Origin: a phage
Length of the DNA: 64,000 nucleotides
Reading direction: 5' to 3' (one strand)
Assembly: GCA_015370545.1 (NCBI GenBank)
Contig: GCA_015370545.1_3932.1
Shown: positions 63,297 to 63,595 of the stretch, in pieces
Layout of the letters: each line of letters begins with the position of its first letter
Position numbering within the stretch: the stretch's first letter is position 1
The notes under the pieces: generated by a model
Databases searched by the model: none
Told to the model about the DNA's origin: nothing
The model's input: the letters and a program-made list of their open reading frames with translations, nothing else
Program-made: the position numbers and the translations under genes

Positions 63297-63516
63297 AAGT
63301 ATTTCAAAATGATGTTTGAGAGGGCTATTTAGCCCCTCCCTTAAAGAGTTCTTACGAGTATTCTTTAAAGGAGCAGAAGACCAAATACAGCAAGAATGTA
63401 TGAAATTTCAAGCCAATTTAATTTTGAAAATTTAAAACTTGGTCTGGCTCAACAAATTTACAGAAGACCGTTTACAGCAAACTTTAAACAATCTATTTCT
63501 CCGGTAAAGAAAAGGC

Positions 63517-63541
63517 GAAGGTTCGATTCCTTCACTCGGCA
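63517..63541 (+). pseudogene. tRNA-like 3' half (T-arm + acceptor 3' strand) with no upstream 5' half
   Basis: GAAGG-TTCGATT-CCTTC then ACTCGGC + A; no complementary acceptor strand or D-arm upstream. Confidence 0.5.
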
Positions 63542-63544
63542 GAT

Positions 63545-63568
63545 GTCGAGTTGGTGTAATGGTAGCAC
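63545..63568 (+). pseudogene. tRNA-like 5' half (acceptor 5' strand + D-arm) immediately after the 3' half
   Basis: GTCGAGT (pairs 7/7 incl. one G-U with the upstream ACTCGGC) + TG + GTGTAATGGTAGCAC D-arm; no downstream T-arm. Confidence 0.5.
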
Positions 63569-63595
63569 TTAAGATGATAAACAACGGTCTGGTAA

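What the first reader, a model, noticed from the sequence alone, without database searches (positions are those of the whole stretch)
63497..63570. Permuted tRNA halves: a 3' half immediately followed by a 5' half whose acceptor strands are complementary
At 63517-63541 there is a T-arm (GAAGG-TTCGATT-CCTTC) plus acceptor 3' strand ACTCGGC and discriminator A, with no D-arm or acceptor 5' strand upstream. Three nucleotides later (63545-63568) comes GTCGAGT + TG + GTGTAATGGTAGCAC, a typical acceptor 5' strand and D-arm, with no T-arm downstream. GTCGAGT pairs with ACTCGGC at all seven positions (one G-U). This is either a circularly permuted/split tRNA gene (known in a few eukaryotic and archaeal lineages, not established in phages) or the scar of a rearrangement or insertion within a tRNA gene.
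Basis: seen in the sequence. Interest (0 to 1): 0.6.

Follow-up and report, generated by a model that had tools for sequence, protein, structure and literature searches.

The report
Phage Y RNA with permuted tRNA-like domain
The "permuted tRNA halves" are real, but they are best read as the tRNA-shaped domain of an unannotated small noncoding RNA of the Y RNA (YrlA) kind, encoded just downstream of a Ro60-like protein gene in Felix O1-type phages, and not as a tRNA gene or a dead scar.

Summary
A T arm (63517-63533) runs straight into a 7-bp acceptor-like hairpin (63534-63551) and then a D arm (63554-63568). Re-joined in normal order in silico, ARAGORN calls the sequence tRNA-Thr(GGU).

It is not a decaying scar. 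Three of the seven acceptor pairs carry compensatory double changes among Felixounavirus and Mooglevirus relatives, with 100% pairing, and 246 phage genomes keep the element.

It is not a decoding tRNA. The "anticodon" loop is 6 or 7 nt among relatives, and the acceptor stem is closed by a 4-nt loop.

The domain sits inside a ~140-nt module (63457-63596). A bulged terminal helix carrying UUACAGCAA closes it. This is one of four such modules interleaved with tRNAs, starting about 0.3 kb downstream of, and on the same strand as, a DUF2828/DUF7788 protein. That protein's predicted fold matches Ro60, and it is the ortholog of Bas63 gp130, a reported Ppl-defence counter.

The layout is that of bacterial YrlA Y RNAs, which their discoverers describe as resembling circularly permuted tRNAs. 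The likely protein-binding motif differs, and Rfam's YrlA model does not score the window element.

The same frame flanks DUF2828 genes in 39 of 78 distant phage loci, 75 copies on the gene strand against 2 opposite. It resembles Dictyostelium Class I RNAs.

Expression and protein binding are inferred, not shown.

The parts
60976..62391 (+). Ro60-like protein gene (471 aa; Pfam DUF2828 + DUF7788; PHROG 850 'RNA-binding protein'); ortholog of Bas63 gp130
   Evidence: ORF. Pfam. PHROG. The AlphaFold2 model built with an MSA has pLDDT 87.9. The 12 best Foldseek PDB hits are all full-length Ro60/TROVE proteins (2i91 TM 0.67; phage phiLo Ro60 9l5y; Deinococcus Rsr 2nvo; E 3e-8 to 8e-7). There is no sequence-level PDB hit. 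Position and length match bas63_0130.
62410..62530 (+). Two sigma-70-like promoters (TTGACA-17-TAATAT at 62410-62438; TTGACA-18-TAAAGT at 62501-62530) between the Ro60-like gene and the first tRNA
   Evidence: These are consensus matches only. No + strand terminator-like site lies between them and 64000, apart from one hairpin at 62402-62433 that overlaps the first promoter.
62723..62801 (+). Module Y1: outer helix TGAC/GTCA, internal loop AGA/G, helix AGACCAA/TTGGTCT, then UUACAGCAA. It fills the tRNA-Glu to tRNA-Met spacer.
   Evidence: Rfam Dicty_Class_I_RNA 19.7 bits, sub-threshold.
62890..62959 (+). Module Y2: TTAC/GTAA, AGA/G, AGACCGT/ACGGTCT, UUACAGCAA. It fills the tRNA-Met to tRNA-Asn spacer.
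   Evidence: Rfam Dicty_Class_I_RNA 20.3 bits, sub-threshold.
63371..63450 (+). Module Y3: GAGC/GCTC, AGA/G, AGACCAA/TTGGTCT, AUACAGCAA, with an A/T-rich interior
63457..63596 (+). Module Y4, the whole YrlA-like RNA: outer helix 63458-63461/63592-63595, internal loop AGA 63462-63464 / G 63591, inner helix 63465-63471/63584-63590, motif ACAGCAA 63474-63480, and the tRNA-like domain inside
   Evidence: RNAalifold and RNAfold both give this fold. CM R1 scores 158.8 bits here. The element is present at >=80% coverage in 246 phage records, with no annotated feature under the match in the 10 listed records that carry annotation.
63496..63512 (+). V hairpin, the former anticodon arm: TTTCT-CCGGTAA-AGAAA
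   Evidence: Loop length and sequence vary among relatives, 6 or 7 nt. Helix pairing is 84%.
63517..63533 (+). T arm GAAGG-TTCGATT-CCTTC
   Evidence: Invariant in all 10 distinct relatives.
63534..63551 (+). Acceptor-like stem-loop (AS): ACTCGGC-AGAT-GTCGAGT, 7 bp closed by a 4-nt loop
   Evidence: Cells are 100% paired, and 3 of 7 pairs change on both sides (window ACTCGGC/GTCGAGT; Sf13 ACACGTT/GGCGTGT; HP1 ACCCTTC/GAAGGGT).
63552..63568 (+). TG linker (the tRNA position 8-9 equivalents) plus D arm GTGT-AATGGTA-GCAC, with A14, A15, G18, G19 and A21 in place
63594..63741 (+). Adjacent long hairpin ('module 2') that runs up to the first base of tRNA-Lys. Whether it belongs to the same RNA is unknown.
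   Evidence: A 19-bp stem at 63594-63612/63719-63740 shows compensatory changes between two interior cassettes.

Best explanation
The feature is the tRNA-like effector domain of a ~140-nt structured noncoding RNA (63457-63596, + strand) of the Y RNA / YrlA kind.

Anatomy, which is shown by the sequence and its relatives:
- A terminal helix with a conserved asymmetric internal loop, followed on the 5' side by single-stranded UUACAGCAA, closes the module.
- Inside, in order, are a weakly conserved hairpin (the former anticodon arm, or 'V'), a canonical T arm, an acceptor-like stem closed by a tetraloop, and a canonical D arm.
- This is a tRNA-Thr(GGU)-derived sequence, circularly permuted at position 26/27.

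Mechanism, which is inferred:
- The RNA is co-transcribed with the tRNA cluster from the promoter-like sites at 62410 and 62501.
- It is released when the flanking tRNAs are processed. Modules Y1 and Y2 exactly fill inter-tRNA spacers.
- The helix plus the CAGCAA motif is the binding site for the Ro60-like ring protein encoded about 1.1 kb upstream on the same strand.
- The L-shaped tRNA mimic acts as the tethering or gating module that brings in, or blocks, a tRNA-recognising partner. This is the model proposed for bacterial Ro60-Y RNA-PNPase particles.
- In the close relative Bas63 the protein partner (gp130) is needed to overcome the Ppl defence system, so the particle probably works in anti-defence or RNA quality control during infection.

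The window-type acceptor loop (AGAT) probably stays closed. HP1-type and several distant relatives encode N-CCA in that loop and may be opened by RNase P, as shown for Mycobacterium smegmatis YrlA.
For: Structure and covariation:
- The acceptor-like helix is 100% paired across three haplotypes, with 3 of 7 pairs changed on both sides. The covariation score is 0.134 against 0.064 in shuffles, and 0 of 500 shuffles reach it. Register-shifted controls pair at 41-51% against 97%.
- The closing helix covaries among the paralogous modules Y1-Y4: AA/TT against GT/AC inside, and GAC/GTC, TAC/GTA, AGC/GCT outside.
- The MFE and consensus folds agree with this structure.

tRNA origin:
- ARAGORN calls the un-permuted sequence tRNA-Thr(GGU).

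Genomic context:
- The upstream CDS has the Ro60 fold.

Match to the published definition of YrlA:
- V, T, AS and D stem-loops in that order, closed by the 5'/3' ends, within 4 kb of Ro60 and on the same strand (PMC4201824).

Generality:
- CAGAAGACC-N4-ACAGCAA occurs 4 times in the window against 0.04 expected, always near this gene.
- In 78 distant DUF2828 loci, the signature AG-helix / 2-4 nt / CAGCAA ... CU|G occurs 75 times on the gene strand against 2 on the opposite strand, peaking within 500 nt of the gene.
- Twelve such frames enclose T->AS->D domains.
- Rfam's YrlA model matches two of these relatives at E 2e-7 and 8e-3.

Not coding:
- A 1-nt indel in the V loop and 4-6-nt indels in the AS loop among close relatives would frameshift both overlapping ORFs.
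Against: - No expression, processing or binding data exist for this RNA.
- Rfam's YrlA model (RF02553) does not score the window element even at E<=10 on a 171-nt search. Its matches to relatives are below the gathering score (38.9 and 31.4 bits against 69).
- The YrlA hallmark GNCGAAN0-1G near the 5' end is absent.
- The partner protein is Ro60-like only by predicted fold (TM 0.5-0.67, 10-16% identity) and matches no TROVE profile by sequence.
- The position-48 equivalent (C or A) does not form a canonical Levitt pair with A15.
- The linkers between the closing helix and the tRNA core are long (24 and 15 nt), unlike Salmonella YrlA.
- A few natural isolates have lost all or part of the module: ESCO49 and SP116. 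It is therefore dispensable under some conditions.
Confidence: 0.8

Rival explanations
1. It is an evolutionary scar. Two tandem tRNA genes, or one duplicated tRNA-Thr, lost the 5' part of the first copy and the 3' part of the second. What remains is non-functional debris in a recombination-prone tRNA cluster.
For: - tRNA clusters in these phages do rearrange through conserved tRNA arms. SP116 fuses this T arm to the 3' end of tRNA-Lys. ESCO49 and VSe11 carry clean deletions.
- HP1-type relatives keep G-CCA-AACA between the two acceptor strands, which looks like a former tRNA 3' end plus spacer.
- The anticodon-like loop is decaying.
Against: - Compensatory double changes keep all seven acceptor pairs intact in three haplotypes.
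- The T and D arms are invariant, while the adjacent linkers and the V loop vary.
- The unit is framed by a conserved helix and motif shared with three neighbouring modules.
- Independent T->AS->D units sit in the same frame in phages whose DUF2828 protein is only about 40% identical to the window's.
- 246 genomes retain the element.
- A scar explains the origin, not the maintenance.
Confidence: 0.05
2. It is a genuine circularly permuted or split tRNA gene. The transcript is cut in the acceptor loop and its outer ends are joined, or it works as a nicked two-piece molecule, to give a functional tRNA-Thr(GGU).
For: - The un-permuted sequence is called tRNA-Thr(GGU) by ARAGORN, with a 7-bp acceptor stem, canonical T and D arms and a 4-nt variable loop.
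- Sf13-type relatives have a textbook anticodon loop, CUGGUAA.
- M. smegmatis YrlA, which also has a 7-bp stem, is cut by RNase P and receives CCA in vivo (PMC4201824).
- Some relatives encode N-CCA in the loop.
Against: - 12 of 40 related loci have a 6-nt loop, and HP1 and ESh21 types have unrelated loops.
- The window type has no CCA and a 4-nt closing loop. The Sf13 type is closed by a UACG tetraloop on a 6-bp stem, which leaves no room for a free end.
- No ligation or splicing motif analogous to the bulge-helix-bulge of Cyanidioschyzon is evident. Instead, 24- and 15-nt linkers lead into a conserved protein-binding-like helix.
- No bacterial pathway is known for joining positions 26 and 27 (background knowledge).
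Confidence: 0.03
3. It is a functional tRNA mimic that works independently of the Ro60-like protein. It could be a decoy or sponge for a host tRNA-targeting defence nuclease, a tRNA-modifying enzyme or RNase P, or a processing signal for the polycistronic tRNA transcript.
For: - Phage tRNA clusters are thought to counter tRNA-cleaving defences. This view is cited in the PhageMaP preprint.
- The element is embedded in a tRNA operon.
- tRNA-like structures can serve as RNase P/Z punctuation marks (background knowledge).
Against: - The framing helix and CAGCAA motif track the DUF2828 gene itself, peaking within 500 nt on either side and on the same strand. They do so even in loci where the RNA lies upstream of the gene or has no tRNA-like insert.
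- The four modules share the frame but only one has the tRNA domain. This argues that the frame, and hence a common binding partner, is the constant element.
Confidence: 0.1

Closest known systems
YrlA (Y RNA-like A; Rfam RF02553) of Salmonella, Mycobacterium and other Ro60-encoding bacteria and some phages (Chen et al. 2014, PMC4201824; Wang et al. 2018, bioRxiv 10.1101/312249, PDB 6CU1)
   Same: - The order of elements is the same: a V stem-loop, a T arm, an acceptor-like stem closed by a loop, a two-nucleotide linker and a D arm, all closed by pairing of the 5' and 3' parts.
- It is encoded within 4 kb of a Ro60-type protein, on the same strand.
- The size is about 110-150 nt.
- Several Y RNAs occur per locus.
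- Some members have 7-bp stems that RNase P can open.
- The authors explicitly describe YrlA as resembling circularly permuted tRNAs.
   Different: - There is no GNCGAAN0-1G motif. The conserved single-stranded motif is (U)U(A/U)CAGCAA, next to an AG...CU|G helix.
- The partner is a DUF2828/DUF7788 protein that is recognisable as Ro60 only by fold.
- Long linkers separate the closing helix from the tRNA core.
- The V element still looks like a former anticodon arm.
- The Rfam YrlA model does not score the window element.
- The modules are interleaved with real tRNA genes.
Phage Ro60-Y RNA systems (mycobacteriophages, Caulobacter phage CcrColossus, Bacillus phage G; Thermus phage phiLo Ro60 with Yrl1/Yrl2, PMC12135203)
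   Same: A phage-encoded Ro60-fold protein with adjacent stem-bulge-stem RNAs. The proposed role is hijacking host RNA decay or countering defence.
   Different: Those proteins are sequence-recognisable TROVE proteins, and their RNAs carry the CGAA motif. The Felix O1-type RNAs had not been located. The Bas63 study only suggested that some annotated tRNAs might be Y RNAs.
Dictyostelium Class I RNAs (Rfam RF01414; Kjellin et al. 2021, PMC7919456)
   Same: - A short 6-7 bp terminal stem of variable, compensating sequence.
- (A)AG at the 5' end and CUG(U) at the 3' end.
- A conserved motif directly after the 5' stem strand: CCUUACAGCAA in Dictyostelium against GUUUACAGCAA here.
- A variable remainder.
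- Many copies.
- The Rfam model gives its best non-tRNA matches to Y1, Y2, Y4 and to two modules of a very distant phage locus.
   Different: - All these matches are sub-threshold (14.7-20.3 bits against a gathering score of 41.5).
- The distant modules of L104 did not score.
- Class I RNAs are eukaryotic, 42-65 nt long, and reported as unique to dictyostelids.
- The protein shown to bind a Class I RNA directly is an RRM protein.
- No tRNA-like insert is known in them.
- I could not test a link to a DUF2828 protein in Dictyostelium.
Circularly permuted tRNA genes of Cyanidioschyzon merolae and split tRNAs of Nanoarchaeum (background knowledge)
   Same: The 3' part of the tRNA is encoded upstream of the 5' part, with complementary acceptor strands joined by a short intervening sequence.
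   Different: Those genes mature into ordinary decoding tRNAs through a circular intermediate, or by trans-splicing, with the tRNA splicing endonuclease and ligase. Their anticodon loop, CCA addition and identity elements are conserved. Here the anticodon-like loop is not conserved and the acceptor stem stays closed.
Two-piece, circularly permuted tmRNA genes of alpha-proteobacteria and some cyanobacteria (background knowledge)
   Same: A bacterial precedent for a permuted gene order in a tRNA-like domain, probably arising by duplication and truncation.
   Different: tmRNA keeps a free, aminoacylatable CCA end and an mRNA-like module, and it works with SmpB on the ribosome.

Membership tests
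YrlA-type Y RNA | Encoded within ~4 kb of a Ro60 ortholog, on the same strand | tested here: met
   The module starts 1,066 nt after the stop codon of the + strand CDS 60976-62391. The 12 best full-length PDB matches of that CDS's model are all Ro60/TROVE proteins. Caveat: the protein is Ro60-like by fold only (DUF2828/DUF7788 by Pfam).
YrlA-type Y RNA | Conserved T and D stem-loops with tRNA-invariant nucleotides, in the order T -> AS -> D | tested here: met
   The T loop is TTCGATT with a G53-C61-type closing pair. The D loop is AATGGTA (A14, A15, G18, G19, A21). Both are invariant in 10 distinct relatives.
YrlA-type Y RNA | [quoted passage not shown] | tested here: met
   A 7-bp stem with loop AGAT. 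It is 100% paired, and 3 pairs carry double changes. Twelve distant examples all have different stem sequences.
YrlA-type Y RNA | A less conserved V stem-loop upstream of the T arm | tested here: met
   The hairpin at 63496-63512 is 84% paired, and its loop varies.
YrlA-type Y RNA | 5' and 3' parts pair to close the tRNA-like domain | tested here: met
   The pairs are 63465-63471 with 63584-63590 and 63458-63461 with 63592-63595. They are mostly invariant in orthologs (two G-U changes) and covary among the paralogs Y1-Y4.
YrlA-type Y RNA | GNCGAAN0-1G motif near the 5' end (the presumed Ro60 contact) | tested here: not met
   The only match is GGCGAAG at 63514-63520, at the V/T junction. It is not at the 5' end and is not conserved (GGAGAAG, AGAGAAG in relatives). 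The conserved 5' motif is UUACAGCAA instead.
YrlA-type Y RNA | Scores above the gathering threshold of Rfam RF02553 (69 bits) | tested here: not met
   There is no YrlA match to 63440-63610 at E<=10. Distant modules of the same frame score 38.9 bits (L112 9497-9612, E 2.4e-7 locally) and 31.4 bits (L120).
YrlA-type Y RNA | Bound by the Ro60 protein; modified by TruB/DusA; stable RNA in vivo | not testable with these tools
   This needs RNA immunoprecipitation, northern blots or RNA-seq, and modification mapping.
Circularly permuted tRNA gene (decoding tRNA) | The re-ordered sequence folds as a canonical tRNA | tested here: met
   ARAGORN calls tRNA-Thr(GGU) for the window and Sf13 versions. 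The HP1 version is degenerate.
Circularly permuted tRNA gene (decoding tRNA) | A conserved 7-nt anticodon loop and anticodon | tested here: not met
   Loop variants in 40 loci: CCGGTAA 19, CGGTAA (6 nt) 12, CTGGTAA 4, and five with other sequences.
Circularly permuted tRNA gene (decoding tRNA) | A free acceptor end with CCA (encoded or addable), and a processing motif that joins the outer ends | tested here: not met
   The window loop is A-GAT (4 nt). The Sf13 type has a 6-bp stem with a UACG loop. Only HP1-type relatives encode GCCA. The outer ends lead into a conserved helix plus motif, not into a recognisable splice motif. The absence of ligation itself cannot be tested here.
tRNA pseudogene / rearrangement scar | Neutral decay: substitutions disrupt pairing and are not compensated | tested here: not met
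   97.2% of all cells are paired, against 92.7% in shuffles (0 of 500 shuffles reach it). There are 14 cells with double changes, against 5.5 expected.
Dictyostelium Class I RNA (RF01414) | A short terminal stem, an 11-nt motif CCUUACAGCAA next to its 5' strand, and AAG...CUGU ends | tested here: inconclusive
   - Motif: 9 of 11 positions are identical (GUUUACAGCAA), including all five positions reported as near-universal (U3, C6, C9, A10, A11).
- Helix ends: the helix begins AAG-ACC and ends GGUCU-G.
- Rfam scores are 19.7, 20.3 and 14.7 bits here, and 17.3 and 14.7 bits in L040, all below the gathering score of 41.5. L104 gave no match.
- No Dictyostelium sequence or protein could be examined.

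The most novel reading that the evidence does not exclude
The frame found here is an AG-initiated 6-8 bp helix, 2-4 nt, CAGCAA, a variable insert, then a 3' strand ending CU|G. It may be the cognate RNA ligand of the DUF2828 branch of Ro60-like proteins. If so, it would define a large, unrecognised Y-RNA-like family that spans many phage lineages. By shared signature it would also include the Class I RNAs of dictyostelid amoebae, which are currently considered unique to that group and of unknown mechanism. In this reading the permuted tRNA-like domain is one of several interchangeable effector inserts. Others are tRNA-like domains in normal order and unrelated hairpins.
Probability: 0.3. Interest if true: 0.85.

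Novelty: new variant of a known kind. Interest (0 to 1): 0.65.

Why it matters
It locates the missing RNA partner of a phage Ro60-like protein. That protein has a measured anti-defence phenotype in a tractable model phage (Bas63 gp130 against Ppl), where the RNA had only been guessed to hide among the annotated tRNAs.

It extends tRNA-mimicking Y RNAs to a second, sequence-divergent protein branch (DUF2828) with a different recognition motif. It shows that the system is widespread in phages: 246 Felix O1-type genomes, and 39 of 78 distant loci sampled.

It corrects annotations. The element is unannotated, called a 129-nt 'tRNA-Thr' with an intron, or covered by spurious minus-strand ORFs.

It gives a concrete, testable hypothesis for what dictyostelid Class I RNAs bind.

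It also documents a natural case of a tRNA being turned into a permuted structural module, apparently by duplication and truncation inside a tRNA cluster.

Tried and rejected
- **Group I intron or split tRNA with an intron.** I considered this on first reading because a 5' tRNA half is followed by structured RNA. Rfam finds no intron family, and the 3' half lies upstream.
- **Protein-coding ORFs.** The ORFs at 63396-63572 (+) and 63432-63689 (-) are rejected, because 1-nt and 4-6-nt indels among close relatives break both frames. Bas63 annotates different small ORFs at the same place.
- **tRNAscan's 129-nt 'tRNA-Thr-GGT' in ASO1B.** It pairs the 3' strand with a poorly matching upstream heptamer (5 of 7) and needs a long intron. 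The downstream partner pairs 7 of 7 and covaries.
- **Sequence-level link of the protein to Ro60.** phmmer and a 42-sequence profile against PDB sequences found nothing. The single-sequence AlphaFold model was too poor to use (pLDDT 45). Only the MSA-based model worked.
- **Fetching a bona fide YrlA for direct comparison.** The supplementary tables of Chen et al. are not held.
- **A covariance model from distant T-AS-D modules.** The MAFFT alignment (A4) mis-aligned the AS and D arms, so I used the a-priori pattern scan instead.
- **afdb50 fold search.** I wanted it to look for eukaryotic, especially Dictyostelium, DUF2828 proteins, but it is not available.
- **Literature.** Searches for DUF2828, UCP015417 and DDB_G0281243 gave nothing useful, and Avesson et al. 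2011 is not held.
- **PADLOC.** No match for the protein.
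Full report
**Where we are.** The window is from a Felix O1-type myovirus. The 801 bases around the finding match 193 phage records over at least 80% of their length, mostly Escherichia and Salmonella Felixounavirus. ARAGORN finds eight tRNA genes on the + strand between 62557 and 63972. The finding lies in the 454-nt gap between tRNA-Asp (63210-63287) and tRNA-Lys (63742-63817). Most related records leave this gap unannotated. One record calls a 129-nt 'tRNA-Thr-GGT' there (ASO1B). Others place small hypothetical ORFs over it.

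**The observation.**
- T arm GAAGG-TTCGATT-CCTTC at 63517-63533
- ACTCGGC at 63534-63540
- A-GAT at 63541-63544
- GTCGAGT at 63545-63551
- TG at 63552-63553
- D arm GTGT-AATGGTA-GCAC at 63554-63568

Directly upstream is a 5-bp hairpin with a 7-nt loop (TTTCT-CCGGTAA-AGAAA, 63496-63512), followed by a 4-nt spacer. Rfam's tRNA model sees only a partial, sub-threshold tRNA at 63477-63541 that lacks a D arm (24.7 bits).

A strict, tRNA-knowledge-based scan gives one hit in the 64-kb window on either strand, at 63517-63568. The scan looks for a T arm, then immediately a perfectly paired hairpin, then 2 nt, then a D arm with GG. It gives no hits on the opposite strands or in shuffles of 793 kb of related loci. 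When I re-join the pieces in normal order, ARAGORN calls tRNA-Thr(GGU). The element is therefore a genuine circular permutation of a tRNA-like sequence, opened between positions 26 and 27.

**It is maintained, not decaying.** I aligned the Asp-Lys spacer with Felixounavirus and Mooglevirus relatives. This shows three acceptor-stem haplotypes:
- ACTCGGC/GTCGAGT (window type)
- ACACGTT/GGCGTGT (Sf13 type)
- ACCCTTC/GAAGGGT (HP1 type)

All seven pairs are kept in all ten distinct sequences. Three pairs change on both sides; for example pair 5-68 is A-U, U-A or G-C. Over the whole proposed structure, 97.2% of cells pair, against 41-51% when the 3' partners are slid by 1-3 columns. No shuffle out of 500 reaches the observed covariation score. 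The T and D arms are invariant, whereas the linkers and the upstream hairpin vary. The 140-nt unit is present at >=80% coverage in 246 phage records.

**It is not a decoding tRNA.** Among 40 related loci, the loop of the former anticodon arm is CCGGTAA in 19, the 6-nt CGGTAA in 12, CTGGTAA in 4, and unrelated sequences in the rest. The window-type acceptor stem is closed by a 4-nt loop without CCA. The Sf13 type is a 6-bp stem closed by UACG.

The two ORFs that overlap the element are broken by 1-nt and 4-6-nt indels among close relatives, so they are not coding.

**The larger unit.** RNAalifold on the relatives and RNAfold on the window agree on the following. The four hairpins sit in a multiloop closed by AGACCGT (63465-63471) pairing with ACGGTCT (63584-63590). 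After an asymmetric internal loop (AGA / G), a further four pairs form between TTAC (63458-63461) and GTAA (63592-63595). The closing helix is followed on the 5' side by UUACAGCAA.

A covariance model of this unit (R1) also matched, through the frame alone, two shorter elements in the window and their counterparts in relatives. The 20-nt pattern CAGAAGACC-N4-ACAGCAA occurs four times in the window, all on the + strand between 62726 and 63480, against 0.04 expected. Each copy is paired with a downstream GGTCTGG.

There are thus four tandem modules:

| Module | Coordinates | Position |
|---|---|---|
| Y1 | 62723-62801 | fills the tRNA-Glu to tRNA-Met spacer |
| Y2 | 62890-62959 | fills the tRNA-Met to tRNA-Asn spacer |
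| Y3 | 63371-63450 | in the Asp-Lys gap |
| Y4 | 63457-63596 | in the Asp-Lys gap; holds the tRNA-like domain |

Their helices covary with one another: AA/TT against GT/AC in the inner helix, and GAC/GTC, TAC/GTA, AGC/GCT in the outer one.

Two sigma-70-like promoters with perfect TTGACA boxes lie at 62410 and 62501. No + strand terminator-like site follows before the end of the window. It is an inference, not a demonstration, that the modules are co-transcribed with the tRNAs and released when the neighbouring tRNAs are processed.

**The neighbouring protein.** The CDS 60976-62391 (+) ends 331 nt before Y1 and 1,066 nt before Y4. Pfam sees only DUF2828 and DUF7788. PHROGs labels it 'RNA-binding protein'. 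Sequence searches of the PDB find nothing.

An AlphaFold2 model built on 42 homologs is confident (pLDDT 87.9, pTM 0.87). Its 12 best PDB matches are all full-length Ro60/TROVE proteins: Xenopus Ro60 (2i91, TM 0.67), human Ro60 complexes, Thermus phage phiLo Ro60 (9kop, 9l5y) and Deinococcus Rsr (2nvo), with E 3e-8 to 8e-7. Only isolated vWA domains follow.

**Comparison with what is known.** Chen et al. (2014) defined YrlA RNAs by these features (PMC4201824):
- conserved T and D stem-loops
- a structurally conserved 'AS' stem-loop between them, corresponding to the tRNA acceptor stem
- a less conserved 'V' stem-loop upstream of T
- closure by the 5' and 3' parts
- a GNCGAAN0-1G motif near the 5' end
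- a location within 4 kb of Ro60, on the same strand

They found such RNAs in 254 bacteria and 22 phages, but searched only genomes annotated with a TROVE-domain protein. [quoted passage not shown] It adds that the 7-bp stem of M. smegmatis YrlA is cut by RNase P and receives CCA (bioRxiv 10.1101/312249).

The window element meets every architectural and contextual criterion. It fails two sequence criteria. There is no GNCGAA motif at the 5' end, and Rfam's YrlA model (RF02553) does not score it even in a 171-nt search at E<=10. I therefore file it as working like a YrlA and as a variant of that kind, not as a member of the Rfam family.

**The variant is widespread.** I fetched 78 phage loci encoding DUF2828 proteins only 29-47% identical to the window's.
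- ACAGCAA occurs 143 times on the gene strand against 54 on the other. There are 35 and 28 copies within 500 nt upstream and downstream of the gene, against 4 and 1 on the opposite strand.
- A strict signature occurs 75 times on the gene strand against 2 on the opposite strand, in 39 loci, with up to six copies per locus. The signature is a helix starting AG, 2-4 nt, CAGCAA, and a complementary strand ending CU followed by G.
- The helix sequences are all different, which amounts to extensive covariation.
- The T->AS->D scan finds 13 hits in these loci, all on the gene strand. Twelve sit inside the same frame, in units of 110-134 nt.
- Rfam's YrlA model matches two units of this frame below threshold but significantly: L112 9497-9612 at 38.9 bits (E 2.4e-7 locally), which is one of the twelve, and L120 6858-6931 at 31.4 bits, which lies in a separate frame.
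- Five acceptor loops begin N-CCA directly after a 7-bp stem: HP1 GCCAAACA, L120 GCCAAAACA, L086b, L112a and L112c. This points to a tandem-tRNA origin and, possibly, to RNase P opening in those members.
- Other frames hold a tRNA-like domain in normal order (L120 7520-7616, which Rfam's tRNA model scores at 55 bits; L039 3526-3612) or unrelated inserts.

**An unexpected resemblance.** Among 4,227 Rfam families, the best non-tRNA match is Dicty_Class_I_RNA (RF01414) for five modules:
- Y1: 19.7 bits
- Y2: 20.3 bits
- Y4: 14.7 bits
- two modules of the very distant locus L040: 17.3 and 14.7 bits

All are below the gathering score of 41.5, and none is individually significant. The modules of L104 did not score.

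Class I RNAs have a short compensating terminal stem, conserved (A)AG and CUGU ends, and an 11-nt motif next to the 5' stem strand. The consensus is CCUUACAGCAA, with U3, C6, C9, A10 and A11 near-universal. They are reported as unique to dictyostelids (PMC7919456). The phage frame has the same parts. Y4 reads GUUUACAGCAA and keeps all five of those positions.

One of four proteins pulled down with a Class I RNA, DDB_G0281243, has no known function (bioRxiv 10.1101/2020.04.05.026054). I could not determine whether it, or any dictyostelid protein, belongs to DUF2828. This remains a lead, not a finding.

**Verdict.**
- Shown: the permuted layout, its statistical rarity, compensatory evolution, the framing helix and motif, the four-module organisation, the Ro60 fold of the neighbouring protein, and the recurrence of the whole arrangement in distant phages.
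- Inferred: transcription with the tRNA operon, release by tRNA processing, binding of the frame by the Ro60-like protein, the tethering or gating role of the tRNA mimic, and a role in countering host defence.
- Against: no expression or binding data, failure of the two YrlA sequence criteria, a non-canonical 15-48 pair, long linkers, and natural isolates that have lost the module (ESCO49, SP116).

Noticed in passing
window 62723-62801, 62890-62959, 63371-63450: Three further modules (Y1-Y3) have the same bulged closing helix and UUACAGCAA/AUACAGCAA motif as the element under study, but no tRNA-like insert. Y1 and Y2 exactly fill inter-tRNA spacers, so tRNA processing alone could release them.
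   Followed up: yes
window Y1, Y2, Y4; L040 3680-3742 and 3749-3829: Rfam's Dictyostelium Class I RNA model (RF01414) is the best non-tRNA match to these modules (14.7-20.3 bits, below the gathering score of 41.5). The shared signature is an AG...CUG terminal stem plus (C)UUACAGCAA. Class I RNAs are reported as unique to dictyostelids.
   Followed up: partly
window 63594-63741: A long hairpin abuts tRNA-Lys. Its 19-bp stem shows compensatory changes, while its interior exists as two unrelated cassettes among relatives (window type against bumzen/Mooglevirus type). Both cassettes keep a small hairpin, CAGACC-(C)UUWAGCAA-GGUCUG, that echoes the AGACC/GGUCU helix and the GCAA motif. No Rfam match.
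   Followed up: partly
L009 (HP1) 1400-1480; L120 7742-7834; L086 6563-6618; L112 6843-6901 and 9527-9582: In some relatives the acceptor-like loop starts N-CCA directly after a 7-bp stem, for example GCCAAACA or GCCAAAACA. This looks like a fossil tRNA 3' end plus spacer. It could allow RNase P cleavage to expose a CCA end, as reported for M. smegmatis YrlA.
   Followed up: partly
L120 7520-7616; L039 3526-3612: The same AG-helix/CAGCAA frame can enclose a tRNA-like domain in normal (unpermuted) order, with an anticodon-like loop CUUCUAA. Rfam's tRNA model scores the L120 copy at 55 bits, although the frame inserts extra nucleotides between the acceptor strands and the core.
   Followed up: no
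L006 (SP116) 1344-1473; L005 (ESCO49) 1180-1201; L007 (VSe11) 1200-1266: Natural deletion variants exist. SP116 fuses the T arm of the module to the 3' end of tRNA-Lys. ESCO49 lacks tRNA-Asp, Y3 and Y4 up to the base after the D arm. VSe11 lacks Asn, Tyr, Asp and Y3 but keeps Y4 from its first base. Recombination between conserved tRNA arms seems to remodel this cluster.
   Followed up: partly
L124 (Bas63, MZ501086.1) 2449-2723: The annotated minus-strand hypothetical genes bas63_0137 and bas63_0138 lie over the Y4 module and the following hairpin. They are probably spurious ORF calls over noncoding RNA. ASO1B annotates a 129-nt intron-containing 'tRNA-Thr-GGT' at the same place.
   Followed up: partly
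window 63318-63368: Two hairpins are almost invariant between Felixounavirus and Mooglevirus: GAGAGGGCTATTTAGCCCCTC and CTTAAAGAGTTCTTACGAGTATTCTTTAAAG, the latter ending in AAAGGAG. They lie just upstream of Y3 and are more conserved than the tRNA-like domain itself. Function unknown.
   Followed up: no
window 63047-63115: The 69-nt Asn-Tyr spacer contains a T-arm-like hairpin, TAAGG-TGCAAGT-CCTTA (63080-63096), with no other tRNA features. The adjacent tRNA-Tyr is flagged as a pseudo-tRNA in several related records.
   Followed up: no
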